Under the pieces are notes generated by a model. That model worked only from the letters and a program-made list of their open reading frames with translations. It did not search any database and had not been told where the DNA came from. Positions 21,289 to 32,000 of a DNA stretch of 32,000 bases are shown one piece after another; position 1 is the first letter of the stretch; each line of letters begins with the position of its first letter. Both the position numbers and the translations under genes were made by a program. Source of the DNA: Nitrosococcus oceani ATCC 19707 (GTDB lineage: Bacteria; Pseudomonadota; Gammaproteobacteria; Nitrosococcales; Nitrosococcaceae); assembly GCF_000012805.1 (NCBI RefSeq), contig NC_007484.1:540001-572000 (forward strand). Reading direction: 5' to 3'.

Positions 21289-21648
21289 CTAATCTTTCGC
21301 TCTTTCCTGTTTTTTGATGTATTCCCTCAATACTTCGAGCGGCACTGCTCCAGCGGTTATCAGGCAATAAGCTCTAGTCCATAGAACAGGTTTCCAGTAG
21401 AAGTTGAGTAGATACTCATTGAACTCTTTTCGGATCAACCTACTGGTGACCGTTTCTAGGCTATTGATGAATTTGCTCGGCATTATATTGGGGTGCATAT
21501 CCAGAAGTAGATGAACATGGTCAGCTTCGCCGCCAAACTCATCGAGGGCTATTCCCCACTTGGCACATTGCTCTTGGCATATCACTTCTAACCGCTGAAG
21601 CATGGCTTGCGTAAAACATTGTCGCCTGTATTGAGTCATCAACACCAA
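21289..21648 (-). CDS. tnpA: IS200/IS605 Y1 (HUH) transposase TnpA, apparently N-terminally short
   Basis: YRRQCF, the HUH motif ADHVHLLLD, and the catalytic-Tyr region WTRAYCLITAGAVPLEVLREYIKKQ. A TGA lies immediately upstream of the TTG start, where family members carry ~15-20 more residues (..YHxVWxxKYRR). Confidence 0.8.
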   Translation of the reverse strand: MVLMTQYRRQCFTQAMLQRLEVICQEQCAKWGIALDEFGGEADHVHLLLDMHPNIMPSKFINSLETVTSRLIRKEFNEYLLNFYWKPVLWTRAYCLITAGAVPLEVLREYIKKQERAKD

Positions 21649-21653
21649 TCAGC

Positions 21654-22882
21654 ATGACGATGAGAGCCTACAAGTTCAGGATTTATCCTAATGCTGAGCA
21701 GACAATACTTCTGGCTAAGCACTTCGGGTGTGCTCGATTTGTTTATAACTGGGCTTTATCAGAGAAGAAAAAGCATGACGAAGCGAGCGGGAAAAGTCTC
21801 TCTAAACGAGCCTTTCAGGACGCTTTAGTTGCCAGTAAAAAAGCGGATAAAGGCTGGCTCAATGAAGTCAATAGCCAAAGTCTTTTGGCCTTGCTCAATC
21901 ACTTAGATAAAGCCTTTTCCAATTTTTCCAAAGGATTAGCTAAATTTCCCCGCTTCAAAAGCAAGTAGGCGGGTCGTCAGTCCTTCCAATGCCCGCAACC
22001 TACTCAGGTTGACCATGAAAACGCGATATTCATCTACCTAAACTCAAAGGTATCAAGGCCAAGCTACACCGTAATTTTACGGGCAAGATAAAAACAGTCA
22101 CCGTTACTCGCAGCGCATCCAACAAATACCTTGCAAGCGTACTGATTGATGAGGCTACACAGGTACCTATCCCGGCCACGATTGAAGTCAGTCAAACGCT
22201 GGGGCTTGAGCATCTATTGATTGATAGCGAAGGGCGTAGAGTTGATAACCCACGGTATCACCGACAAGCCTTGAAAAGGCTGGCAATTGAGCAAAGAAAA
22301 TTGGCACGTCAGCAAAAAGGCTCAAGCAATAGAACCCAGCAAAGACGAAGGGTTGCTAGGGTTCATGGGCGGGTAGTCAACCAGAGAAACAATTTCATTC
22401 ACCCAATCACAGCAAGGTTGGTTGGCAAAGGCCAGGCAACTACCTTTGCCGTTGAAGATTTGAATGTCAAAGGCATGGTAAAGAACCGCAAACGATCTAG
22501 GGCTATTCAAGATGTCGGCTGGGGAATGTTTTTGACAACGCTTGAATATAAGTGTCGTTGGAATGGAAAAAATCTTATTCGCATCGCTCGATTCGAGCCT
22601 AGCTCAAAACTTTGTAATCGCTGTGGTTATAAAGCGTCCATTATGCCACTGTCAGTACGTCAGTGGTGCTGTCCTGCGTGTCAATCGGTTAATGGCCGCG
22701 ATATCAACGCAGCAAAAAATATAAGAGATTTCGCTTTAGCTGATGTGCTGGGACACAGCGCTTGTATCAAGAGTTCCCCTGCGACAACACCTATCAGCGT
22801 AGGTATCACAGCGAAAGGTGCCGAACATTTAGCTCGTCACGGGTCGCAAGAAGCCCCTGCTAGAGCCGATAAATCGGCTTAG
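21654..22882 (+). pseudogene. tnpB: tnpB (IS605 OrfB / RNA-guided nuclease family) disrupted by an in-frame TAG and a frameshift
   Basis: N-terminal MRAYKFRIYPNAEQ..FPRFKSK stops at TAG 21966-68. Homology continues in frame 0 (AGRQSFQCPQ..VDHEN), then shifts near the A-run at 22017-22021 to frame 2 (IHLPKLKGIKAKLHR..TVTRSASNKYLASV..). It runs on to the RuvC/Zn-ribbon part (AVEDLNVKGM, CNRCGY..CPACQ, GRDINAAKNI), ending at 22882. Confidence 0.85.
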
Positions 22883-22993: not shown

Positions 22994-24808
22994 CTAGCTT
23001 TCAGAGTCATCTGGGCTAAAGCTGATGATGGTATCTCCCGTTTCAGGAGGATTCAAACCAGCAAGGGGATAAAAGGTAAGCTGGCCGTTTTTAGTTACCA
23101 CCGCGATTAATATCAATTCCTGGGGACGATCCTGAAGATAATCCTCATAGGTATACTCTTCCGTGAGTTGTGTGCTGCGAAATTCCCAGCCATGGTAGTA
23201 GTGACGCATGAAATCCTCATATTGAGTATTTTCGTCAAAGGCGATTCTCCCTCGCGCCGAGCGGGCAAAGGTTTTATCCTTTTCGCTGGAATTTGCTATG
23301 GAAGGCAACTGGAAGACATGATTTTGACCTAGTTGCGGCGCGAAGCGGGTACACACAAGGGCATTGTAGGCGTCATTGGCGGTGACGGCCAGCACATAGC
23401 TGATGGCATTGAGTTCAAGAGAAGTTTCCGCAATTTCAGATAATATTTGTCCCCGGTATATCTCCAAATTCGATAGGCGCGCAGCCCGTAAGTGATGCCA
23501 TGAAGTGTCGTTTACAATCACGGGAATGCCTAGTTTTTTAAGCGAGCGGGCTAGATCGACTGACCAGGGAGTAGCGCCTACGATAAGTACCCCGTTGGGA
23601 TTATGAGCGGCGAGACCTAGAAGACGTCCTAGCCCCGCCATGGTGAGACCGTGCAGAATGACGGTAGCGGCGATCAGCGCAAAGACTAACGGCAGGAGTT
23701 GATCGGCGCCTTTAAAACCTTGCTGGATAAGAGGGAAGGCCAGTAAACCCGCCATTGAAGCGGCGACAATGCCTCGGGGAGCAATCCAGGCGATGAGCAA
23801 TCTTTCCCGCCACTTTATCCCCGTTCCTAAAGTGGCAAGATAGACGGAAAGAGGCCGCACGAAAAAGATAGCGATGCCCAGCAAGGCAAGGCTGTGCCAA
23901 TCTAGTCTGGCGAGCGTTTCAAGCTCGATGTTGGCGCTCAACACGATAAAGAGCGTTGAAACAAGGATAAGGGTGATATGTTCCTTGAAACGGCGCAGTT
24001 CTTCAATGTTACGCAGCCGTTGGTTGGCGACGACGACGCCTGCCACGGTAACGGCTAGCAGCCCCGCTTCTTCTTGGACGGCATTGATGGCGACATAGAG
24101 CAAGAGTACGGCGCCAAGCATCACCGGAGATTTCAGGAATTCCGGGACATGCCCCCGGTGAAAGGCCCAACTTAACAAGTAGCCAAAGCCGATACCTGCG
24201 CTGGTAGCAGCGAGCAAGCCTAGGCCAAGGTTGCCTAGCGCCGCAAGTATCCCGTGCTCAGGGGACTCCATTACCCAGTACCACACGGCCCAATACTGGA
24301 AGACTAAAATGGCAAGCAAGGCGCCTAGTGGATCATTAATAATTCCCTCCCATTTAAGCAGCGCCGCCGTACGGCGCTGAAGGCGGGCAAATTTCAACAG
24401 CGGCATAAGCACTGTAGGACCCGTGACTACACTGATGGCGCCGAAGAGGGTAGCTATTGGCCAAGAGAGGCCCGCGATAAAGTGCGCTGCTGCTGTATTG
24501 AGGGTCCAGGTTAAAAATAATCCCAAGCTGACTAAACGCCTTACATCGACGCCAGCTTCTTTGTATTCATGCCACTGAAGGTTAAGTCCGCCTTCGAATA
24601 AAATGATGGCCACGGAGAGAGCTATTAAAGGAGGGAGGATATGGCCGAAAGTTTGCTCCGGATCGAGCCAGCCTAAGACCGGTCCAAGCGCGAAACCAGC
24701 CATTAACAGCAGCACAATAGCCGGGACTTGAAAGCGCCATGCTAGCCACTGGATGCTAACCCCAAGCACGACAATAAACGAAAAAATGAGGATTAGATCA
24801 GATTCCAT
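22994..24808 (-). CDS. Cation:proton antiporter (Na+/H+ exchanger family) with C-terminal cytoplasmic RCK/TrkA-like domain
   Basis: 604 aa. About 11-13 hydrophobic helices with Na_H_exchanger-like features (ILFEGGLNL). The soluble tail has a Rossmann-like GVLIVGATPWSVDLARSLKKLGIPVIVND. Confidence 0.85.
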   Translation of the reverse strand: MESDLILIFSFIVVLGVSIQWLAWRFQVPAIVLLLMAGFALGPVLGWLDPEQTFGHILPPLIALSVAIILFEGGLNLQWHEYKEAGVDVRRLVSLGLFLTWTLNTAAAHFIAGLSWPIATLFGAISVVTGPTVLMPLLKFARLQRRTAALLKWEGIINDPLGALLAILVFQYWAVWYWVMESPEHGILAALGNLGLGLLAATSAGIGFGYLLSWAFHRGHVPEFLKSPVMLGAVLLLYVAINAVQEEAGLLAVTVAGVVVANQRLRNIEELRRFKEHITLILVSTLFIVLSANIELETLARLDWHSLALLGIAIFFVRPLSVYLATLGTGIKWRERLLIAWIAPRGIVAASMAGLLAFPLIQQGFKGADQLLPLVFALIAATVILHGLTMAGLGRLLGLAAHNPNGVLIVGATPWSVDLARSLKKLGIPVIVNDTSWHHLRAARLSNLEIYRGQILSEIAETSLELNAISYVLAVTANDAYNALVCTRFAPQLGQNHVFQLPSIANSSEKDKTFARSARGRIAFDENTQYEDFMRHYYHGWEFRSTQLTEEYTYEDYLQDRPQELILIAVVTKNGQLTFYPLAGLNPPETGDTIISFSPDDSES

Positions 24809-25501
24809 AAAATGTTGTTTGGTAGAAACATAGAGGTAAGGATAGCAGGCTATTGAGTCTTGTCCCTATCCGCGGCGTTAACTATCCTCAAGCTATGAAG
24901 TTTCTCTGGTCGTGTTTTAGATTAGGAGAATTGAGTAGATTGACACTGGGCAAAAGCCTAGCAGTTCATCCAATAAACTCAAGGAAGAAAAAACAGGCGC
25001 TTTCCAGGGCGCTTATTCCTGTGTATTTCACCTGATACACCCTGTTAGGCGAATGGCGCGCCACAGGATGGGCCTCTCCAAAGTCCGCCAATTGGTATGG
25101 TATCGCCATTGGACTGTCTGTTAAACGATAGGGAGCTAGTATGCAGGCGTAAAGTTGTTATCTCAGAGATGGAACACCGCCGTTTCTCTTAGTCCATAAT
25201 GGTTATTAGGATGGAAGCAATTCTTGGGAGGAGACTGGAGAACCAGGGTGGTGACGTGGGCCAGGTACAGGCAATTCCACGGCCGGCCTGCGCACATATA
25301 ATCAGCCGGTGGGGAATGGGGTCAGGGTTGTCCGCTAAGCGATGAAATAGAGGAGGGAATCAATTGTGGGGGCGAGCAGCCAGACTATTTTTACTTAGCC
25401 CATAGGGCAGATAGGCGTGGGGGATATGCCACATACCGGCGGCCGAGCAGAAGTATCTCACGCCGTGGGCGTCGGGCCGATCCTTAGGAGGAGGCGATGC
25501 A

Positions 25502-25873
25502 ATGAGAGGCGTTATTATAACTGCTCTGCTAACATTGATATTTTTATTTTGGCTGGCGGGGGGGCTTTACGGTTTTTTAAAAACCAAAAATAAGTCGCCA
25601 GAGGCCAAGCGAACGGTGGCCTATATTCTTGGATATCCCTTGCTGGCGGTTTATGTGGCGAGTGATGGCTTACCGCCGGCCGCAATCGTCTTCCCTGTTG
25701 GCCTGGGAGGCGTGTTTTGGCTATTGGCTGGTATGCACCTACAGAAAGTTTTAGAAGGTGAGTACCCACCCACGCCTGGGACATTTATTGGACTTTCCAT
25801 AAAGTATTGCCTTGGCGGCGTCCTCGGCGCATTTCTTCTGGGCGCTTTGCTTCAATACGCCGGGCTGTTTTAG
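25502..25873 (+). CDS. Small integral membrane protein (about 4 TM helices), unknown function
   Basis: 123-aa ORF with a strong RBS (AGGAGGAGG, 7 nt upstream of ATG). Four hydrophobic segments. No motif recognised. Confidence 0.55.
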   Translation: MRGVIITALLTLIFLFWLAGGLYGFLKTKNKSPEAKRTVAYILGYPLLAVYVASDGLPPAAIVFPVGLGGVFWLLAGMHLQKVLEGEYPPTPGTFIGLSIKYCLGGVLGAFLLGALLQYAGLF

Positions 25874-26166
25874 GTGCCGTTTGGGGTAAGATAGCAATGC
25901 CCTCCTTTGTGGATTGAACGACCATCATCGGATTGAGTTTATAGTAGGGCTTTAGCGCAAATTTTCGAAAAAGCTCAATAAAGGCAAGTCGATCAGTTTA
26001 GAAATATCAAAATTACTTTGCCTATGATGTGCGTATTTGCTAAAGCTAATGGGGGCTGGCAAAATTAATAATTATTTGATATAGGGATAAAAATAAGTAT
26101 TAGTCAATAGCTGATTGCGTATGATAAGGCGCAGGTTGATCAGTTTATTTTATGTTGGGCGTAAAC

Positions 26167-26517
26167 ATGACGAATACAGCGAACGAAGTGGAGTGCGCTT
26201 ACTGTGGCGCCGTGCTTCCAGATGGACACACGTCGCCTTGCCCCCAGTGCGGAAAGAAGGGACGGAAAATCTCGGTCAGCGTAGCCGAAGAAATCAACGT
26301 TGCCGAGAAGGTGACATGGGAGAAGCGACGAGAGTTTTATGAAAAGCATCCGCTGGCATGGGCGACGGTCATCGCTATAACAATTGGCGCACCATTTCTC
26401 GGTTTATTCTTGGCGGGGTGGGCTGGGGTGATCGCCGGCTTGGCGCTAGGCGGTATCGCATATTGGATTGGTCCGATTGCGGTCACGAAAGTAAGAGAGA
26501 TTGAGCGGGGTGGTTAA
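26167..26517 (+). CDS. Zinc-ribbon protein with two C-terminal TM helices, unknown function (cassette B)
   Basis: CAYC..x13..CPQC Zn-ribbon, then WATVIAITIGAPFLGLFLAGWAGVIAGLALGGIAYWIGPIAV. The ATG lies 6 nt after the GTTGGGC box (alternative ATG at 26152). The stop lies 5 nt before attC1. Confidence 0.55.
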   Translation: MTNTANEVECAYCGAVLPDGHTSPCPQCGKKGRKISVSVAEEINVAEKVTWEKRREFYEKHPLAWATVIAITIGAPFLGLFLAGWAGVIAGLALGGIAYWIGPIAVTKVREIERGG

Positions 26518-26522
26518 TTCTC

Positions 26523-26594
26523 GCCCAACAAGTCGCTCCAGCCGACCGTCAAACCGCTGCGCGGCTCGCCGTCGGCTGAGCTTCGGCGTTGGGC
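26523..26594 (+). other. attC-like recombination site 1 (72 nt)
   Basis: GCCCAAC-AAGTC-GCTCCAGCCGAC...GTCGGCTGAGC-TTCGGC-GTTGGGC. The R boxes are perfectly complementary. The L arms pair over 11 bp with one bulged C. It matches the AACAAnTCGnTCnAGCCGAC pattern of aadA-type 59-base elements as I recall it. Confidence 0.8.
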
Positions 26595-26703
26595 TTTTTG
26601 GCAGCAGTGTTTTCTCTATAACCATTTAATATCCCGAGATTTAAATTAAAAATGAGATTTTTTGATTATGATAAAATGATTACAAAGTTTGGGGTGCATC
26701 GTG

Positions 26704-26982
26704 ATGAGTCAAATTATAAATCTGGAATTAAGTAACAGTACATTTGAAGCTATTCAAAAAAAAGCTAAAGAAGCCGGCCTATCGCCATCCAATTTAATAA
26801 AAGAGCTACTAGAGAAAAAATATCATTCTAAAGTGATGTCTGAAGAGGGTAAGGATAAAGCGCGTTCTAATTTTGAACGCCATTTTGGTGGGTTTGATTT
26901 AGGTTATTCAATGGGAGCGGATAACGAAGATATTGATAAAGAGTTGGCAAATTCGTATATGGATAGTAATGGGGCGGGTTAA
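26704..26982 (+). CDS. Ribbon-helix-helix type antitoxin (VapB-like) (cassette C)
   Basis: MSQIINLELSNSTFEAIQKKAKEAGLSPSNLIKELLEK is an RHH-like beta-alpha-alpha N-terminus. The stop overlaps the toxin start (TAATG at 26980-84). The start could be GTG 26701 or TTG 26689. Confidence 0.6.
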   Translation: MSQIINLELSNSTFEAIQKKAKEAGLSPSNLIKELLEKKYHSKVMSEEGKDKARSNFERHFGGFDLGYSMGADNEDIDKELANSYMDSNGAG

Positions 26983-27455
26983 TGTTACTGGACACTTCTG
27001 GCCTTTACTGTTTACTTCACAAAGCAGAATTTTTTCATAAGCAAGCGTGTGAATTTTACTACTCTGCTCAGAGGCGAGTGACAAATAATTATGTTTTAGA
27101 CGAGTTTATTGCACTGGCTAGTGTGCGCCGACTCCCTCGGGAAAAATCTTTAGCGTTCGTCACCGATTTATTAAACAATCCTGATATTCAGGTGATTTGG
27201 ATAGATGAATCACTAAATAACGAAGCGTTAACTTTGCTGCATGCACGAAAAGATAAAGGTTATTCTTTACGTGATGCCGTCAGTTTTATAATTATGCGCC
27301 AAAAAAACATTGATGAAGCATTGACGACAGACATCACTTTGAACAGGAAGGTTTTCGGCGGCTTCTTATTTAGCGTAATAGTAGCGAAAGGGTACAGCCT
27401 AACAGGGCGCTGTAGAGAACATTTGACAAAGTGCGCCAACCTGCGTTCCGCGTAG
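26982..27455 (+). CDS. vapC: PIN-domain (VapC-like) toxin with a probable 1-nt deletion near the 3' end (cassette C)
   Basis: MLLDTSGL.. (Asp4), ..LDEF.., ..SLRDAVSF.., ..ALTTD. After the fourth acidic residue, the canonical PIN C-terminus HHFEQEGFRRLLI* is readable only in the adjacent frame (27332-27373). The annotated frame runs on into attC2. Confidence 0.8.
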   Translation: MLLDTSGLYCLLHKAEFFHKQACEFYYSAQRRVTNNYVLDEFIALASVRRLPREKSLAFVTDLLNNPDIQVIWIDESLNNEALTLLHARKDKGYSLRDAVSFIIMRQKNIDEALTTDITLNRKVFGGFLFSVIVAKGYSLTGRCREHLTKCANLRSA

Positions 27456-27498
27456 AACAGGCGTGTTTGTCAAATACCGCTGAGCTTGGTCGTTAAGT
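27397..27498 (+). other. attC-like recombination site 2 (102 nt)
   Basis: GCCTAAC-AGGGC-GCT..ATTTGACAAA...TTTGTCAAAT..GAGC-TTGGTC-GTTAAGT. There is a 10-bp perfect inner stem, and the spacer geometry matches site 1. Confidence 0.7.
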
Positions 27499-27514
27499 TT
27501 TTAGGAATTTTGTA

Positions 27515-27910
27515 ATGGCAAAAGATTGGAAAGAATTAACCACTGACGAGCTTCTAAACTTTAACGGACCCGAGACAGCGGAGATAGCTCGGTTTGAGAG
27601 AATTATGCAGCAACGCACTGCGGAGTCTCTCAGAGAATTTCAGTCCGAGCTATCGAATACCGCTAATCATATAAATCAATCCACGGATCGGATAGTCGGA
27701 GTTGGTAATAGGTTGATTAAAACAATTGAAGCACAAGGAGAGGCTCAAAAGAAACATCAGCGATCAATCGTCTGGCTCACAGTTGTAATTGCGGTCGCTA
27801 CTGTGGCTTATGTAATTATCACCTGGTTCTCAGTACAAACGATGCAAGAAGCCAATGATATTCAGCGCAAATCAGCCAACATTGAGCGGTCCGGGAATAC
27901 AAAAACCTAA
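27515..27910 (+). CDS. Coiled-coil protein with a C-terminal TM anchor, unknown function (cassette D)
   Basis: 131 aa with RBS AGGA. A helical N-terminal ~85 aa, then SIVWLTVVIAVATVAYVIITWFSV. The stop TAA lies inside the ACCTAAC box of attC3. Confidence 0.55.
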   Translation: MAKDWKELTTDELLNFNGPETAEIARFERIMQQRTAESLREFQSELSNTANHINQSTDRIVGVGNRLIKTIEAQGEAQKKHQRSIVWLTVVIAVATVAYVIITWFSVQTMQEANDIQRKSANIERSGNTKT

Positions 27911-27985
27911 CAAATCGTTGGAGACGGACGTTTGTTCCGCAGGCTGCGCCCGCTCTAAAAACGCTGCTCAACTCCCCGATTAGTC
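27905..27985 (+). other. attC-like recombination site 3 (81 nt) with a non-canonical 3' core (ATTAGTC)
   Basis: ACCTAAC-AAATC-GTTGGAGACGGAC...GCTGCTCAAC-TCCCCG-ATTAGTC. The L arms pair with a bulged G. At the position fixed by the 6-nt spacer, the core reads A-TT instead of G-TT. Confidence 0.6.
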
Positions 27986-28009
27986 CTTAAGCTGTTTGTA
28001 GGAGCCCAG

Positions 28010-28657
28010 ATGGCCTTCTATGATGAATTGAACGACGAGAGCAACTTCGTTGCTTCATTTACAAGTAATTCGAAGGGAGACTTTGGCGTTTTCGCCAAGG
28101 GATACCGGCTCGGCGCGGAGCGGCTCGCCGAATCTCTTACCAGTGCGCACAGGTTTGCAGACTATGAGGCGTATCCGGTCGTCTTCTTATATCGGCACGC
28201 CCTTGAGCTTTCGCTCAAACATATTATTTACAGCGCTGCCCTGATTAGCGCATTTCAATTCTCCCCTAGTGCAGACGGCCGTCTTAAGAACGATCATCGT
28301 CTCCCGCCCTTAGCATCAGGAGTCGCTCAAGTGTTAGAGCTTCTGTTCCCAAAGGAAGGCTCCCTTGGGCTGCTGATGCGCGAAATCTCTGAAATCTGCG
28401 ATGATTGGCGCAATCTTGATCCGCATTCTTATGCGTACCGCTATCCGATCGACATTCAAGGTAAACCTTCGACGAGGCAACACCAAGTCGTAAATCTTCG
28501 AAGCCTTGCTTTCCGTATGTCTACGGTCCTTGAATCATTGGAGACCGTTCACTTCGGCCTCAACATAGAGACTGATAAGGCACAGGAGATCTATGAGACA
28601 GTTCAGCAGATTATTGTGTCTATATCGCATCCCACTGACACTGAAAGTGAAGGCTAA
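28010..28657 (+). CDS. HEPN-like domain protein, unknown function (cassette E)
   Basis: 215 aa with RBS AGGAG. Three motifs occur in HEPN (PF05168-type) order: FLYRHALELSLKHII (cf. QQAxEKALKALL), RLKNDHRLPPL (Rx4H, cf. THDL) and HSYAYRYPID (cf. YYIxTRYPD). The stop TAA lies inside the GGCTAAC box of attC4. Confidence 0.6.
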   Translation: MAFYDELNDESNFVASFTSNSKGDFGVFAKGYRLGAERLAESLTSAHRFADYEAYPVVFLYRHALELSLKHIIYSAALISAFQFSPSADGRLKNDHRLPPLASGVAQVLELLFPKEGSLGLLMREISEICDDWRNLDPHSYAYRYPIDIQGKPSTRQHQVVNLRSLAFRMSTVLESLETVHFGLNIETDKAQEIYETVQQIIVSISHPTDTESEG

Positions 28658-28739
28658 CAAGGGCATACAGGCGACGGCAAACAGCATCCGCTCGTTCCCC
28701 GCTCCCGCTGTCTGCCATTCCTGGTACTTATCGTTAGGT
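28652..28739 (+). other. attC-like recombination site 4 (88 nt)
   Basis: GGCTAAC...GGCAAACAGC...GCTGTCTGCC...TATC-GTTAGGT. CTAAC/GTTAG are complementary, and the inner 10-bp stem has one mismatch. Confidence 0.6.
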
Positions 28740-28882
28740 TTCTTGGTAACCAAGACTCTTTTTTGAGGGTTGTAATGAGATGATCCAGAACGTAAGGTAG
28801 ATACTGCCAGCCGATATCGTATTCGCATACGACTTCTCTGTATTCTCTCCGGCAATCAAATGACGAATGGCGCTATGCTTTC

Positions 28883-29686
28883 ATGGACGATGACGAGTTT
28901 CGAGAATCGCTGAAAGGAGACCCTGTACAGGCGGCGGAAATCTATTGGAAGGAAATGCTGTATAGGGCGCACATCGTTTGTTTGGTATCAGCGTTCAAAA
29001 CACTGCGTTGGATCGAAGCACTCGATTCAACTTTCGAGAACTACTATGGTTTTTGCACGTCGTTGCGCGGGCTAATTGAATCTTGTTCCGACGCATTCTA
29101 TACCCTGCGGTCAACTCCGCTAACGCTAGCGCGAGACTTCTTTGTGATAAAGGAGCAGATCAACCGACGGTCTGGTGTGATTACGCTTCATGAGAATCTT
29201 GAAGGGCTGTTACTTCATTATATCCAGGCGACAAGACTGAGTCCGTCTCAAAAGAGGCAATATCCTGACTCGTTCAGCGCAAAATCCGTCAGGGACTATT
29301 TGTCCACGATGGATAATGAGAAACTGGATCATTTATATCAATGGCTGTGTGGTATTGCGCACCCCGCATACGAATCCACAAGGATCTTCCTTTTTTGTTA
29401 TGAAGGGCAAACTATTGTATGCAACGATAGTTACGAGATGGAAAGAGTGTTGATCAGGGATATTCTACAAGCCTATGCACCTGCGCTTACAAAAATGATA
29501 CGGACTTACATGAATAACCTGATTTCTATATTTATGTTGCTAAACGAGTTCGAAATCGAAAACATCGTTACCACGGTAGATAATGAGTCAGAGTTCAAGG
29601 AAACAGCGATATGGGCAGAAGTTCAACAATACATATACGAGTCGGAGTTTCTGTATCGACATGGTCACTACGAACAAAAAACATAA
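28883..29686 (+). CDS. All-alpha orphan protein with AbiV/DUF5677-like motif pair, unknown function (cassette F)
   Basis: 267 aa. SLRGLIESCSDAFYTL and LYQWLCGIAHPAYES resemble the two conserved helices of AbiV/DUF5677-type proteins (from memory). The RBS is weak. The stop TAA lies inside the ACATAAC box of attC5. Confidence 0.6.
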   Translation: MDDDEFRESLKGDPVQAAEIYWKEMLYRAHIVCLVSAFKTLRWIEALDSTFENYYGFCTSLRGLIESCSDAFYTLRSTPLTLARDFFVIKEQINRRSGVITLHENLEGLLLHYIQATRLSPSQKRQYPDSFSAKSVRDYLSTMDNEKLDHLYQWLCGIAHPAYESTRIFLFCYEGQTIVCNDSYEMERVLIRDILQAYAPALTKMIRTYMNNLISIFMLLNEFEIENIVTTVDNESEFKETAIWAEVQQYIYESEFLYRHGHYEQKT

Positions 29687-29735
29687 CAATGGGTTCAGTT
29701 CATAATAATGAACTTGTGTGAAGTAGAGGTTGGGT
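29681..29735 (+). other. attC-like recombination site 5 (55 nt, classic 59-be size)
   Basis: ACATAAC-AATGG-GTTC-AGTTCAT-AATA-ATGAACT-TGTGTGAAGTAGAG-GTTGGGT. The next ORF starts 5 nt downstream. Confidence 0.6.
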
Positions 29736-29740
29736 AAACT

Positions 29741-29970
29741 ATGACTGTGAACTACAGAGATAGAATAACATTGGAACCGGGTAAGAGGTCCGGGAAGCCA
29801 TGCGTAAGGGGTCTTCGGATAATGGTTTACGATGTGTTGGGGTCCTCGCCTCAGGAATGAGCGTTGATGAAATCCTTGCTGATTTCCCGGACTTGGAGCG
29901 GGAAGATATACTGGCTTGTTTAGCCTATGCGGCCGATCCGCGCCATAGCATTGTTCCCAAGTCAGCATAG
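29741..29970 (+). pseudogene. DUF433-type antitoxin, frameshifted (cassette G)
   Basis: MTVNYRDRITLEPGKRSGKPCVRGLRIMVYDVLG (29741-) stops at 29858-60. The expected continuation LASGMSVDEILADFPDLEREDILACLAYAAD.. is in the +1 frame and ends at TAG 29968-70. The shift lies near 29838-29845. Confidence 0.7.
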
Positions 29971-30339
29971 AAGATCCTGCTGGATCAAAATTTATCGCCG
30001 AAACTATGCGATAGACTGGCTCCTGATTATGAAGCAATTCACGTCCGTAATATTGGTACGGGTTCAGCGAGTGATGTCGAAATATGGAATTATGCGGCGA
30101 AAAATAACTACTCTATAGTTGCTAAGAATGAAGTTTTTAACGGCTTGTCACAAGTAAAGGGATTTCCTCCGCATGTTATATGGGTGCGATTGGATAATTT
30201 TTCTACAAATAATGTCTTGAATATGTTAAAGAATAATCATTCGGCTATAGTTCAGATAATTGAGAGTGCTGAAGCCAGTATAATAAGGCAAGCGACGGCT
30301 GCCGGGAACAGCCAAGCGAGACTTAGCCGTAAACTCTAA
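29971..30339 (+). pseudogene. DUF5615 / Mut7-C-like PIN-fold toxin partner of DUF433, lacking a start codon (cassette G)
   Basis: The open frame KILLDQNLSPKLCDRL..DVEIWNYAAKNNYSIVAKN..PPHVIWVRLDNFS.. begins directly after the TAG of the upstream gene (..GCATAGAAGATC..). The first ATG/GTG/TTG in frame is at 30145 (codon ~59). Confidence 0.65.
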
Positions 30340-30370
30340 AATGTTTATCTAAAGGAGCCATCTACTCTAT

Positions 30371-30940
30371 ATGCCACAATTCCTGCTAGGTCTCGCGTTA
30401 TTCTTCGGCATGCATTCTATATCCATCGTAGCCTTGCCGCTACGTGATCAATTGGCGGCAAAAAGCGAAATCGGATGGAAAATACTGTATGGCAGTGTCT
30501 CTCTCATTGGGATTATTCTCATATCAAGGGGTTACGTGGACCTAAGACAGGCACCCACTTTACTTTACGTATCACCTATTTGGTTGCATCATGTAGTTAC
30601 CATTCTTTTGCTGCCAACATTCATTCTTTTTCTTGCGCCATACTTTCCTGGGCGAATTAATAACACTGTAAAACATCCGCAGCTTGTCGCTGTGATGATT
30701 TGGGCCGTGGCGCACTTATTGGTAAACGGCACGTTAGCCGACCTATTGTTGTTCGGGTCGTTCTTGCTGTGGGCCATCGTAGATCGTATCTCGATGATGA
30801 ATCGAGCTACCCGCTCAGTACCCAGTGTGCCTCAATCGAAAGCAAACGACATTATCGTGGTTGTGGTTGGCTTGGCTGTATATGCGGCAATCGTTTTCTG
30901 GCTTCATGAAACGCTGCTAGGCGTGAAGCCGCTCATCTAG
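30371..30940 (+). CDS. NnrU-family integral membrane protein
   Basis: 189 aa with RBS AGGAG. About five TM helices. KHPQLVAVMIWAVAHLLVNGTLADLLLFGSFLLWA resembles the NnrU signature. Confidence 0.65.
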   Translation: MPQFLLGLALFFGMHSISIVALPLRDQLAAKSEIGWKILYGSVSLIGIILISRGYVDLRQAPTLLYVSPIWLHHVVTILLLPTFILFLAPYFPGRINNTVKHPQLVAVMIWAVAHLLVNGTLADLLLFGSFLLWAIVDRISMMNRATRSVPSVPQSKANDIIVVVVGLAVYAAIVFWLHETLLGVKPLI

Positions 30941-31040
30941 GTACTTTGCCAAATTGGAACCATTCCGGTCCGGGGTACTACCCAATTTCGACCCGACAGG
31001 CGCGAAAATAGGTTTAGCATTTTTTCTTAAGGAGAAAACA

Positions 31041-31487
31041 ATGTCAGAAACTGTAAGTAATATTCTCATAGAAGCCATTAACGATGAGTACAAGGCACGT
31101 GCAACATATCGCCATGTCATTCGTAAGTTCGGTGAAATACGCCCCTTCATTAATATCGTAGAAGCGGAAAGCCGACATATCGAAGCATTGTTACCTTTGT
31201 TTCATAAATATGGTGTTGCTGTTCCAGGAGATAATTGGGCTTCACGAATTGAAGCGCCTTTATCTGTTCTGGAAGCCTGTCAGATAGGAGTCGAAGCGGA
31301 AATCGAAAACGCAAACATGTACGATAGGTTGCTTGAATCGACAGCAGATTATCCAGACGTTCGGAGGGTGCTCGTCCAATTACAAAGAGCATCAATTGAT
31401 AATCACCTTCCTGCTTTTCGCCGATGCGTTGAAAGAGGCGGAAGTCCGGGGCAAGGTTGGCAACACGGCCATCGCCACGATGCCTGA
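31041..31487 (+). CDS. Ferritin-like (DUF2202-type) four-helix protein
   Basis: ATG at 31041 with RBS AAGGAG. AINDEYKARATY..AESRHIEAL..EAEIENANMYD..ASIDNHLPAF matches paired ExxH-type di-iron helices. The ORF-track start at 30954 is rejected. Confidence 0.65.
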   Translation: MSETVSNILIEAINDEYKARATYRHVIRKFGEIRPFINIVEAESRHIEALLPLFHKYGVAVPGDNWASRIEAPLSVLEACQIGVEAEIENANMYDRLLESTADYPDVRRVLVQLQRASIDNHLPAFRRCVERGGSPGQGWQHGHRHDA

Positions 31488-31844
31488 GGACAACTAAAAA
31501 ATCATCGGCGGTGATGACATGGCATGATAGCTCGGTCCAGTGTCAGTTTATGGCAACCGGCTGCTACTCGCGTCGGAATTTGTCAAAGCAACGCCTATGT
31601 TAGCATTCGATCAACCGAACAGTTCTTTTAACTGGAGGGGTCTTACCTTTGCGATGACAGGCTGGTGGGAGGCTGGGAAGTAATAAGGCGCGCGGAGGTT
31701 GCTACCCAGGTGAGAGTCTTGCGTGCTAAGTCGTGGCTAGCCCGAAGCACTTGTCGGGGGGGAATGGCCGAGGCAATGGCTAGCCTGGAAACGTGGTAGC
31801 AAGCAACCGGTCCAATACTACATTGAAATCAAAAGGAGCTGATC

Positions 31845-32000
31845 ATGTCGTCACATTCCGGGGTTCAGGTAAAGTTAGCGGACGTTCATCTCTGTTGCCA
31901 AGGCTGCGTGGATGCGGTTAATACCGCGCTCATGAGCGTGGATGGCGTAGATTCTGGTTGCGACAGGGAGAAGGGGACCGTGACGTTCACAGCCAACGAC
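31845..32000 (+). CDS. Heavy-metal-associated (HMA) domain protein, 5' part; continues beyond the window
   Basis: RBS AAGGAG. MSSHSGVQVKLADVHLCCQGCVDAVNTALMSVDGV.. shows the beta-loop-helix CxxC metal-binding pattern. Confidence 0.55.
   Translation, partial: MSSHSGVQVKLADVHLCCQGCVDAVNTALMSVDGVDSGCDREKGTVTFTAND

What the first reader, a model, noticed from the sequence alone, without database searches (positions are those of the whole stretch)
27515..28657. Candidate two-gene module: membrane-anchored coiled-coil protein plus a solo HEPN-like protein
The 215-aa protein carries three HEPN-type motifs in the right order and spacing: FLYRHALELSLKHII, RLKNDHRLPPL (Rx4H) and HSYAYRYPID. There is no cognate minimal nucleotidyltransferase antitoxin in the cassette. 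Its upstream neighbour is a 131-aa helical protein with one C-terminal TM helix, and the two are separated only by the apparently crippled attC3. HEPN RNases are recurrent effectors of abortive infection and toxin systems. A HEPN paired with a small membrane-anchored partner inside an integron cassette matches no named system I know. It could be an undescribed TA or phage-defence pair.
Basis: inference. Interest (0 to 1): 0.65.

Follow-up and report, generated by a model that had tools for sequence, protein, structure and literature searches.

The report
Two unrelated integron cassettes, one HEPN-like
The two genes are not a partnership but two separate integron gene cassettes joined when the recombination site between them decayed, and the larger one belongs to a big, unnamed protein family that looks like a divergent HEPN (RNase-type) domain without the usual catalytic histidine.

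Summary
Both ORFs are real and under purifying selection: 131 aa at 27515-27910 and 215 aa at 28010-28657. The window is Nitrosococcus oceani, and the genes lie in an attC array with no integrase in the window.

The two-gene module is not supported.
- The 81-nt spacer element is a genuine attC whose crossover GTT has become ATT.
- The closest 215-aa homolog (81% identical) is a clean single-gene cassette with an intact GTTAGCC at that position and no 131-aa gene. DNA homology to the window starts exactly at that core site.
- The 131-aa protein has only four homologs. These are followed by an unrelated 215-aa protein or by a Fic protein.
- None of 43 genomic loci that encode 215-aa relatives carries a 131-aa homolog, a conserved neighbour, or a recurrent upstream membrane-protein ORF.

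The HEPN idea is partly supported.
- The 215-aa family is large: 4,693 cluster representatives, with no Pfam, NCBIfam or PADLOC model.
- It shares with bona fide PF05168 proteins the signature E-x3-K ... H-x-L ... LD-x6-RYP.
- The only Foldseek hits with a target-normalised TM-score above 0.6 are HEPN structures, but all E-values are non-significant.
The true motif arginine is R144, and the motif histidine is missing.
- The best guess is a stand-alone HEPN-type effector of the AbiV/AF0298 kind. Its function is untested.

The parts
27397..27498 (+). attC2. It follows the RHH-PIN cassette. R'' is GCCTAAC and R' is GTTAAGT. The 131-aa cassette begins after the G of GTT, at 27493.
   Evidence: Sequence. 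Its 3' half, CCGCTGAGCTTGGTCGTTAAGT, aligns with the other attC sites. The fold is weak, z -1.3.
27515..27910 (+). 131-aa single-pass membrane protein (TM at residues 85-107). It is a stand-alone integron cassette gene of unknown function.
   Evidence: ORF. Four homologs only. Purifying selection and hydropathy. Its homolog in L046 is bounded by G|TTAGGT and by its own 59-nt attC. No significant Pfam or PADLOC match.
27905..27985 (+). attC3, degenerate. R'' ACCTAAC overlaps the stop codon. The R' position reads ATTAGTC (27979-27985), a G-to-A change at the crossover GTT.
   Evidence: It aligns with the functional L046 attC (ACCTAAC...GTTATGC) and five other attC sites, all of which carry CGTT. 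The bottom-strand fold is no better than shuffles, z -0.57. The closest 215-aa cassette has GTTAGCC at this place.
28000..28004 (+). Shine-Dalgarno-like AGGAG, 5 nt upstream of the ATG of the 215-aa gene.
   Evidence: Read from the sequence.
28010..28657 (+). 215-aa soluble all-helical protein. It is a member of a large unannotated family with a divergent HEPN-T-like signature, and it is its own cassette (27980 to about 28733).
   Evidence: Homologs. AF2 models with pLDDT 82.6 and 95.2. DNA homology with the L051 cassette spans window 27980-28693 only. dN/dS 0.23.
28205..28219 (+). E66-x3-K70 motif in helix 2, within the conserved stretch YRHALELSLK.
   Evidence: E66 and K70 are invariant in 66 diverse members. 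Ex3[KR] in helix 2 is a described HEPN feature (PMC3710099). The same motif is present in 115 of 120 PF05168 proteins.
28295..28297 (+). H96, an invariant histidine at the N-terminus of the helix inserted between core helices 2 and 3. It is a candidate 'alternative' catalytic His.
   Evidence: Invariant. It lies just before helix 98-112 in the model. [quoted passage not shown]
28415..28447 (+). L136-D137-x6-R144-Y145-P146. This is the counterpart of LD-x6-RYP(D/N)AH of classical HEPN, with R144 as the motif arginine. The motif histidine is absent.
   Evidence: The [LIVM]D-x6-RYP spacing is found in 236 of 268 family members and 118 of 120 PF05168 proteins. H at R+5 occurs in 108 of 118 HEPN proteins. 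H at R+5 to R+7 occurs in 6 of 247 family members. hhalign aligns exactly this segment.
28652..28739 (+). attC4, belonging to the 215-aa cassette. R'' GGCTAAC overlaps the stop codon and R' is GTTAGGT.
   Evidence: Sequence. Bottom-strand fold z -2.1 with R''/R' paired. Its first ~40 nt lie inside the 84.6%-identical DNA match to the L051 cassette.

Best explanation
The 131-aa and 215-aa genes are two independent single-gene integron cassettes. They sit next to each other in a chromosomal attC array of Nitrosococcus oceani that has no integrase in the window.

They look like a pair only because the attC between them has lost its crossover triplet (GTT to ATT). That loss welds the two cassettes into one non-excisable block.

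The 215-aa protein belongs to a very large, unnamed, mostly stand-alone family of about 200 aa. Its fold and conserved residues fit a divergent HEPN-T-like domain.
- It keeps the helix-2 E-x3-K motif.
- It keeps the arginine of the Rx4-6H motif, within LD-x6-RYP.
- It keeps an invariant histidine in the insert between helices 2 and 3.
- It lacks the canonical motif histidine.

This is the configuration described for AbiV and AF0298-like HEPN domains.

Inferred, not shown: the protein acts as a dimer (tandem-duplicated relatives exist). It is a metal-independent RNase or RNA-binding effector that stays harmless until triggered, for example by phage infection. That would explain why it needs no antitoxin.

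The 131-aa protein is a rare small membrane protein of unknown role, with no demonstrable functional link to the 215-aa protein.
For: Independence of the two genes:
- Seven sites from three independent sources (the N. oceani window, Logan metagenome contig L046, ENA metagenome contig L051) share one attC architecture (xxCTAAC AAG......GCTGAxCTT...C GTTRRRY). Window attC3 is the only one with ATT in place of GTT.
- The 81%-identical 215-aa homolog on L051 has an intact GTTAGCC 24 nt upstream of its ATG and its own GGCTAAC attC. The only called gene upstream of it is a 29-residue 5' gene fragment on the other strand, and there is no 131-aa gene.
- blastn homology between L051 and the window runs 27980-28693. 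It starts one base after the crossover position.
- The 77%-identical 131-aa homolog on L046, L047, L048 and L050 is bounded by G|TTAGGT and by its own attC. An unrelated 215-aa protein follows it (BLASTP E 2.7).
- A Fic protein follows the 38%-identical homolog on L049.
- In 43 genomic loci there is no 131-aa homolog, no conserved neighbour, and no recurrent upstream membrane-protein ORF: only 2 of 43 upstream ORFs have a predicted TM segment.

HEPN-like nature of the 215-aa protein:
- A real PF05168 set and the family share the tripartite signature: 93 of 120 and 216 of 268. Among 2,252 background ORFs the signature matched 32; a looser version matched 40, and all 40 are the family's own gene.
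- The hhalign score is 23.2. One hundred column-shuffled decoys gave mean 13.2, sd 2.7, maximum 21.5.
- PF05168 is hit weakly by 4 of 66 members.
- With a pLDDT-95 model, the only Foldseek hits with target-normalised TM above 0.6 are 1wwp (HEPN-T, prob 0.84, TMt 0.61) and the HepT toxin 6m6u_D (TMt 0.64).
- The model's helix order places E-x3-K, H96 and R144 where PMC3710099 places the corresponding HEPN residues.
- Tandem-duplicated relatives of about 400 aa suggest a dimeric unit.

Context:
- Relatives lie next to Shedu, SMODS with S-4TM, Abi_C, Schlafen/AlbA_2, RM and AbiEii genes.
- They also occur on 227 plasmids.
Against: - No search reaches statistical significance for HEPN. The window protein has no Pfam hit at E<=1.
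- PDB profile searches return only designed helical bundles and other non-HEPN chains.
- All Foldseek E-values exceed 0.1.
- hhalign probability is 5.6% over 48 columns. An unrelated neighbour protein gave a comparable single-comparison P of 0.012.
- The shared signature was written after seeing both families, so it is post hoc.
- The canonical catalytic His is absent. H63 is replaced by Q or N in the tandem-duplicated relatives.
- RNase activity, toxicity and any defence role are inferred, not shown.
- The neighbourhood is heterogeneous. It includes housekeeping genes such as carA and ruvC.
- No relative was found in 50,697 phage genomes.
- Two cassettes fused by attC decay could still have acquired a joint function in N. 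oceani. That cannot be excluded by sequence alone.
Confidence: 0.72

Rival explanations
1. The membrane-anchored 131-aa protein and the HEPN-like 215-aa protein form one conserved two-gene toxin-antitoxin or phage-defence module carried in one cassette.
For: The genes are adjacent and co-directional, 99 nt apart. No terminator-like hairpin (the scan's own 8 hits) and no functional attC lies between them. The arrangement is identical in two N. oceani assemblies.
Against: Each gene is found elsewhere as its own cassette without the other. There is no co-occurrence in 43 loci. The spacer is a decayed attC homologous to a working one. The 131-aa family has 4 homologs, against thousands for the 215-aa family.
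Confidence: 0.04
2. A neo-operon. The two cassettes were independent, but after attC3 decayed the fused block acquired a joint function specific to N. oceani. For example, the membrane protein might tether or restrain the HEPN-like protein.
For: Loss of the crossover site freezes the pair together. Both ORFs stay intact and under purifying selection. Both have Shine-Dalgarno-like sequences, and the scan found no sigma-70-like promoter in the region, so co-transcription is plausible.
Against: There is no positive evidence of interaction. Intact ORFs are expected for recently fused cassettes anyway. The pair is seen in only one species.
Confidence: 0.05
3. The 215-aa family is not HEPN at all. 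It is an unrelated helical-bundle protein, for example a metal- or ligand-binding enzyme using H63, E66, H96 and D137, and its short motifs resemble PF05168 by convergence.
For: No significant profile or structure match to HEPN was found. All-alpha bundles give many spurious Foldseek hits. The canonical His is absent. There is an HxxE element, H63-x2-E66.
Against: Three co-linear motifs have identical internal spacing in both families, and no ORF outside the family among 2,252 background ORFs matched the pattern. hhalign exceeds all 100 decoys. H63 is not conserved in tandem relatives.
Confidence: 0.2
4. The 215-aa protein has a HEPN fold but is non-catalytic. It would be a binding or regulatory subunit, like the substrate-binding HEPN domains of nucleotidyltransferases or of sacsin. 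It might work with variable upstream partners such as Shedu, DUF6035 or DUF2971 proteins.
For: The motif His is missing. PMC3710099 notes that the motif is lost in substrate-binding HEPN domains. On three plasmids the gene sits 31-34 bp downstream of a different nuclease-type or unknown gene.
Against: A strongly conserved polar constellation (R62, E66, K70, H96, D137, S140, R144, Y145) fits the alternative active site proposed for AbiV and AF0298. In most loci, including the cassettes, there is no partner gene.
Confidence: 0.2

Closest known systems
Classical HEPN-T domain (Pfam PF05168; structures 1ufb, 1wol, 1o3u, 1wwp)
   Same: - All-helical bundle with the same helix order.
- E-x3-K in helix 2, H-x-L at the start of the insert helix, and LD-x6-RYP at the end of helix 3 with identical internal spacing.
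- 1wwp, with the HepT toxin 6m6u, is one of the two structural hits with target-normalised TM-score above 0.6.
   Different: - About 80 residues longer, with wider gaps between the motifs: 25 and 34 residues against 12 and 20.
- It lacks the His of RYP(D/N)AH.
- No minimal nucleotidyltransferase partner: one MNT-motif ORF among all 43 loci, about 1.5 kb upstream in L008; none in the window's cassette.
- It does not reach the Pfam threshold.
AbiV and AF0298-like HEPN domains (HEPN families with an 'alternative' active site; PMC3710099)
   Same: - The motif arginine is kept and the motif histidine is lost.
- A second, strongly conserved His lies N-terminal to the motif, in the insert between helices 2 and 3.
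   Different: - No sequence match to the Pfam HEPN_AbiV or PADLOC AbiV models.
- AF0298 (2hsb) is not retrieved by the family profile in the PDB sequence searches.
- A relationship beyond the shared configuration is unproven.
'Integron cassette HEPN' family (PDB 3jrt; PMC3710099) and the Esos cassette of the Vibrio cholerae chromosomal integron (bioRxiv 10.1101/2024.07.02.601686)
   Same: - A single HEPN-type gene carried alone in an integron cassette.
- Esos contains only a HEPN-like domain and gives anti-phage protection. The authors list it among four systems whose domains resemble those of growth-arrest or cell-death defences.
   Different: - The 3jrt family keeps Rx4-6H and is gammaproteobacterial. 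Here the His is lost and the family spans many phyla.
- 3jrt is not retrieved by sequence or by fold.
- Relatedness to Esos could not be tested, because no Esos sequence was at hand.
HepT-MntA (HEPN-MNT) type II/VII toxin-antitoxin systems
   Same: HepT toxins (6m6u, 7ae6) are among the best fold matches.
   Different: - No MNT gene in the cassette. Across the 43 relatives' loci, a motif scan found one MNT-like ORF, about 1.5 kb upstream in L008.
- No Rx4H-x-Y motif.
- No Pfam HepT-like (DUF86) match among the 66 members scanned.

Membership tests
HEPN superfamily (as defined in PMC3710099) | Four-helix up-and-down bundle with a variable insert between helices 2 and 3. | tested here: inconclusive
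   The AF2 models are all-helical and in the right order. The only Foldseek hits with target-normalised TM above 0.6 are the HEPN proteins 1wwp (TMt 0.61, prob 0.84) and 6m6u_D (TMt 0.64), but every E-value is above 0.1.
HEPN superfamily (as defined in PMC3710099) | Conserved Rx4-6H motif at the end of helix 3. | tested here: not met
R144 is conserved, but H at R+5 to R+7 occurs in only 6 of 247 members, against 108 of 118 PF05168 controls.
HEPN superfamily (as defined in PMC3710099) | Conserved acidic residue in helix 2, typically as Ex3[KR]. | tested here: met
   E66 and K70 are invariant in 66 diverse members and lie in helix 55-84. The feature is described.
HEPN superfamily (as defined in PMC3710099) | Metal-independent endoribonuclease activity. 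| not testable with these tools
   This needs purified protein and RNA cleavage assays.
Pfam PF05168 (HEPN) | A profile match above the gathering score. | tested here: not met
   The window protein has no hit at E<=1. Four of 66 members hit, with a best E of 0.016. A local HMM built from 120 true members gave a best E of 0.11. hhalign probability is 5.6%.
AbiV / AF0298-type HEPN variant | The motif His is lost, the basic motif residue is kept, and an alternative conserved His comes from the insert between helices 2 and 3. | tested here: met
   R144 is kept and the motif His is absent. H96 is invariant and sits immediately before helix 98-112, between helix 2 (55-84) and helix 117-136. Spatial proximity of H96 and R144 was not checked, because no coordinates were available.
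AbiV family proper | Sequence match to AbiV models. | tested here: not met
   No Pfam HEPN_AbiV hit and no PADLOC AbiV hit among the 66 members at E<=1.
HEPN-MNT toxin-antitoxin | An adjacent minimal nucleotidyltransferase gene. | tested here: not met
   None in the window's cassette. One MNT-motif ORF was found among all 43 loci, about 1.5 kb away in L008.
Integron gene cassette | An ORF bounded by a 5' TTRRRY core remnant and its own 3' attC, which has R'' RYYYAAC, R' GTTRRRY and an imperfect palindrome. | tested here: met
   - 215-aa cassette: (A)TTAGTC ... GGCTAAC-attC4-GTTAGGT, fold z -2.1.
- 131-aa cassette: G|TTAAGT ... ACCTAAC-attC3, with a mutated R'.
- Both have intact counterparts in L046 and L051.
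- The IntegronFinder covariance model was not available.
Complete integron | An intI integrase and attI next to the array. | tested here: not met
   No Phage_integrase hit among the 20 large window ORFs scanned, nor among the genes called within 10 kb upstream on the NCBI contig. Several ORFs of 200-400 aa were not scanned. The array is preceded by a Na+/H+ exchanger and an IS200/IS605 element, so it is CALIN-like.
   Zero of 43 loci with a 215-aa relative carry a 131-aa homolog. In the four contigs of the closest 131-aa relatives (L046, L047, L048, L050) an unrelated 215-aa protein follows the 131-aa homolog, and in L049 a Fic protein follows it.

The most novel reading that the evidence does not exclude
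The 215-aa protein may represent a very large, so far unmodelled clade of the HEPN superfamily. The clade has at least 4,693 cluster representatives at 50% identity and spans many bacterial phyla. It also includes a 'hypothetical protein' on 227 plasmids, mostly conjugative plasmids of E. coli, Klebsiella and Salmonella (IncF in the two examined). It would use a non-canonical active site (E-x3-K, an insert His, and the motif Arg). It would work as a stand-alone, antitoxin-less abortive-infection or plasmid-competition RNase that spreads as single-gene integron cassettes and in defence islands.
Probability: 0.25. Interest if true: 0.55.

Novelty: new member of a known kind. Interest (0 to 1): 0.3.

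Why it matters
As proposed, a new membrane-protein plus HEPN defence pair, the finding does not hold. That matters mainly as a caution: adjacency inside an integron array is not evidence of a module, and decayed attC sites can make two cassettes look like one.

What remains of interest is the 215-aa family. It has thousands of members, no Pfam, NCBIfam or PADLOC model, and is annotated 'hypothetical' wherever a source names it. It is present on widespread clinical plasmids (IncF in the two examined) and in some integron cassettes. If it is an active HEPN-type effector with an AbiV-like alternative catalytic site, it would add a common, easily testable single-gene candidate to the defence and toxin repertoire.

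Tried and rejected
Searches on the 215-aa protein and its family that found nothing:
- Pfam, PADLOC and NCBIfam scans of the window protein and of 66 diverse relatives gave no named family.
- PDB sequence and profile searches returned only designed helical bundles and other non-HEPN chains.
- Foldseek against BFVD viral structures gave nothing.
- tblastn against 50,697 phage genomes gave no match.
- hhalign against a 3-sequence HEPN alignment was too thin to be useful, with probability 0.3%.
- Global-mode hhalign gave a nonsensical alignment.

Partner hunt:
- BLASTP clustering of all ORFs in the 43 loci, a check for an upstream TM ORF, and Pfam and PADLOC scans of 150 neighbours found no recurrent partner.

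Ideas tested and dropped:
- I suspected that the 215-aa protein downstream of the 131-aa homolog in L046 was the same family, because it has the same length. It is unrelated. My first impression that it was TIR-like has no Pfam support.
- I considered whether the family equals the pEK499_p136 HEPN family of IncF plasmids. That family keeps Rx4-6H, and no Pfam HEPN-family model other than a weak PF05168 match hit the relatives.
- I tested whether the downstream 267-aa protein (weak DUF5677 hit) is related to the family. It is not.

Other searches with no result:
- Rfam found nothing in 24000-32000.
- A literature search for an N. oceani integron found nothing relevant.
Full report
**What is there**

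The window is Nitrosococcus oceani. The 215-aa product is 100% identical to an N. oceani protein, and the region matches contig JPFN01000024.

Both ORFs are at the stated coordinates:
- 27515-27910, 131 aa.
- 28010-28657, 215 aa.

The three quoted peptide strings are present in the 215-aa translation.

Both ORFs are real genes.
- The 215-aa protein has more than 233 homologs at 45-81% identity. Its dN/dS is about 0.23 against its closest relative.
- The 131-aa protein has only four non-self homologs among 5.8 billion clustered proteins. It is under clear purifying selection: pN 0.15 against pS 0.79.
- It has one strongly hydrophobic helix at residues 85-107, followed by about 24 polar residues.
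- Its Pfam and PADLOC matches (Sec20, SLATT-like and others) are all far below threshold. They look like composition matches to helix-plus-TM proteins.

**Context**

The left 22 kb of the window is housekeeping: argH, hemC, hemX, hemY, prfA, hemA, prs and ychF. An IS200/IS605 element and a Na+/H+ exchanger follow.

From about 25.5 kb there is a run of short co-directional ORFs, each followed by an attC-type site.
- attC1 (26523-26594) is textbook. It reads GCCCAAC...GTTGGGC, and its bottom strand folds with z = -3.0.
- attC2 is 27397-27498, attC3 is 27905-27985 and attC4 is 28652-28739.
- These four share an architecture with three sites from two metagenome contigs: xxCTAAC-AAG... at the 5' end and ...GCTGAxCTT...C-GTTRRRY at the 3' end.
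- A 39-nt stretch of attC1 is 90% identical to an attC on metagenome contig L046.

No integrase was found among the 20 large window ORFs scanned or among the genes called within 10 kb upstream. The array is therefore CALIN-like. The simple scan found no sigma-70-like promoter in 26500-29000, where shuffled sequence gives 3.5 on average.

**Are the two genes a module? No.**

- The spacer element attC3 is homologous to the working 59-nt attC behind the 77%-identical 131-aa homolog in L046, which reads ACCTAAC...GTTATGC. At the R' position the window reads ATTAGTC. It is the only one of the seven complete aligned sites without CGTT, and its fold is no better than shuffled sequence, z = -0.57.
- In L046, L047, L048 and L050 the 131-aa homolog is a clean single-gene cassette. 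It has G|TTAGGT upstream and its own attC downstream. The next cassette encodes an unrelated protein that happens also to be 215 aa (BLASTP E = 2.7), and a PIN gene follows.
- In L049 the 38%-identical 131-aa homolog is followed by a DUF4172-Fic protein.
- The closest relative of the 215-aa protein is P0002 (81% identity), on L051. It has an intact GTTAGCC 24 nt upstream of its ATG, exactly where the window has ATTAGTC, and its own GGCTAAC attC. The only called gene upstream of it is a 29-residue 5' fragment on the opposite strand, and there is no 131-aa gene.
- DNA homology between L051 and the window covers 27980-28693 only. It begins one base after the crossover position and ends inside attC4. 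That span is the footprint of one mobile cassette.
- Among 43 genomic loci from many phyla that encode relatives, none has a 131-aa homolog.
- Across those loci no neighbour gene is conserved. Only 2 of 43 upstream ORFs have any predicted TM segment.

The pair is therefore an accident of cassette order, frozen by decay of the attC between them.

**Is the 215-aa protein HEPN?

The family is large. There are 4,693 representatives of 50% clusters at E <= 1e-3. Most are stand-alone proteins of about 200-220 aa, and a few are tandem duplicates of about 400 aa.

It has no model in Pfam, NCBIfam or PADLOC. It has no sequence relative in the PDB.

In 66 diverse members, E66, L67, K70, H96 and Y145 are invariant. 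R62, H63, D137, S140, R144 and P146 are at least 90% conserved.

The residue five before H96 is R in only 28 of 216 members.

To build a control set, I used a consensus recalled from memory. It retrieved the HEPN structures 1ufb, 1wol and 1o3u at E of 1e-23 to 1e-14. From these I collected 120 bona fide PF05168 proteins.

The control set and the family share a co-linear signature: E-x2-[LIVMA]-K ... H-x-[LIVM]-x2-[LIVMF] ... [LIVM]-D-x6-R-Y-P.
- 93 of 120 controls carry it.
- 216 of 268 family members carry it.
- Among 2,252 background ORFs the signature matched 32; a looser version matched 40, and all 40 are the family's own gene.

The signature was written post hoc, which weakens it. The identical LD-x6-RYP spacing is nevertheless striking.

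In the controls the motif continues as RYP(N/D)AH, so RYP carries the arginine of Rx4H. H is present in 108 of 118 controls. In the family the motif continues as RYP(I/V)(D/N)(K/T/R)KG, and H is present in only 6 of 247.

Other evidence is weak but consistent.
- hhalign aligns exactly the RYP segment. The score is 23.2, P = 0.007 and probability 5.6%. That is above all 100 column-shuffled decoys, which had mean 13.2, sd 2.7 and maximum 21.5.
- An unrelated neighbour protein gave P = 0.012, so this line of evidence is weak.
- PF05168 is hit by 4 of 66 members, with a best E of 0.016.

Two AlphaFold models were made:
- The window protein: pLDDT 82.6.
- A 182-aa relative: pLDDT 95.2 and pTM 0.91.

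Both show five helices in the HEPN order.

Foldseek finds nothing significant. For the better model, however, the only hits with target-normalised TM-score above 0.6 are two HEPN proteins:
- 1wwp, with prob 0.84 and TMt 0.61. PMC3710099 lists it as HEPN-T/PF05168.
- The HepT toxin 6m6u_D, with TMt 0.64.

**Fit to the literature**

Anantharaman et al. (PMC3710099) describe three relevant features:
- An Ex3[KR] motif in helix 2.
- The Rx4-6H motif at the end of helix 3.
[quoted passage not shown] They suggest this forms an alternative active site.

The family matches that description point for point.
- E66-x3-K70 lies in helix 55-84.
- H96 lies just before the insert helix 98-112.
- R144 lies in the loop after helix 117-136.

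It is not AbiV itself, since no model matches. It is not the already described 'integron cassette HEPN' family of PDB 3jrt, which was not retrieved by sequence or fold.

A solo HEPN-like integron cassette with anti-phage activity has been reported: Esos, from Vibrio cholerae.

**Most likely mechanism**

Shown:
- The protein is soluble.
- The family is mostly stand-alone.
- It is mobile as a single-gene cassette (L051, and probably L006, L029 and L032).
- It also occurs outside integrons and on 227 plasmids, mostly conjugative plasmids of E. coli, Klebsiella and Salmonella (IncF in the two examined).

Inferred:
- A dimeric HEPN-type RNase or RNA-binding effector with an E/K/H/R site.
- It stays inactive until triggered, so it needs no antitoxin.

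Neighbours are heterogeneous but repeatedly defence-flavoured:
- A Shedu SduA_C gene 33 bp upstream.
- DUF6035 and DUF2971 genes 31-34 bp upstream.
- A SMODS plus S-4TM pair.
- Abi_C, Schlafen/AlbA_2, AbiEii, type II and IIG RM, and SAVED-HNH genes.

Housekeeping neighbours such as carA and ruvC also occur.

I put the HEPN fold at about 0.7-0.75. I put an RNase or defence role at about 0.3.

**Verdict**

The two-gene-module interpretation is not supported, and the HEPN interpretation is partly supported.

The thing itself is ordinary for an integron array: two unrelated cassettes. A residual point of interest is that the larger gene belongs to a big unannotated HEPN-like family.

Noticed in passing
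window 25500-30340: There is a cassette array with attC sites at 26523-26594, 27397-27498, 27905-27985 and 28652-28739, and possibly about 29681-29735. No integron integrase was found among the 20 large window ORFs scanned or among the genes called within 10 kb upstream. The array is flanked on the left by a Na+/H+ exchanger (22994-24808, minus strand) and an IS200/IS605 element (21289-22882). It looks like a CALIN or the remnant of a chromosomal integron.
   Followed up: partly
window 24809-25501: A 693-nt stretch without a convincing ORF lies between the Na+/H+ exchanger and the first cassette-like ORF. I did not check it for attI or intI remnants.
   Followed up: no
window 26689-27455: An RHH antitoxin-like ORF (97 aa) and a PIN-domain ORF (157 aa) overlap by one base and form a two-gene TA cassette. 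The PIN ORF extends about 35 residues past the domain into attC2, so its C-terminus is encoded by the recombination site.
   Followed up: partly
window 28883-29686: The next cassette encodes a 267-aa protein with only a weak DUF5677 match (E 0.057). It is unrelated to the 215-aa family by hhalign. Its function is unknown.
   Followed up: partly
window 29800-30339: A DUF433-like ORF (56 aa) is followed by a 119-aa DUF5615 ORF (29980-30339, TTG start), which is a PIN-like TA-type pair. The ORF listing reported only the C-terminal 64 aa of the second ORF, although the longer frame is open.
   Followed up: partly
window 28741-28755: A terminator-like hairpin (TCTTGGTAACCAAGA followed by a T-run) lies immediately after attC4, at the start of the following cassette.
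   Followed up: no
L046 1176-1214 versus window 26527-26564: An attC in a metagenome contig (SRR25399861) is 90% identical over 39 nt to window attC1. The same attC family, and presumably the same integrase lineage, therefore circulates outside N. oceani.
   Followed up: partly
L049 about 335-355 and about 955-975: The 129-aa homolog of the membrane protein is flanked by a direct repeat, CCGGAGGCGTCCTAAA. That suggests a different kind of mobile or repeat unit from the attC-bounded cassette in L046.
   Followed up: no
L052 (pJJ1887-5, IncF), L053, L054, L055, L056: Distant relatives of the 215-aa protein (25-30% identity) are 'hypothetical proteins' on 227 plasmids. On three plasmids the gene lies 31-34 bp downstream of a Shedu SduA_C, DUF6035 or DUF2971 gene. 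On IncF plasmids it neighbours a SMODS plus S-4TM pair and has a 116-aa gene 70 bp upstream. Possible two-gene arrangements in that branch were not resolved.
   Followed up: partly
P0214, P0237, P0253 (about 400 aa): These are tandem-duplicated members of the 215-aa family. In P0214 and P0237, whose sequences were inspected, both halves keep R, E-x3-K, H and D-x6-RYP, but H63 is replaced by Q or N. This is consistent with a dimeric functional unit. It argues against H63 being essential.
   Followed up: partly
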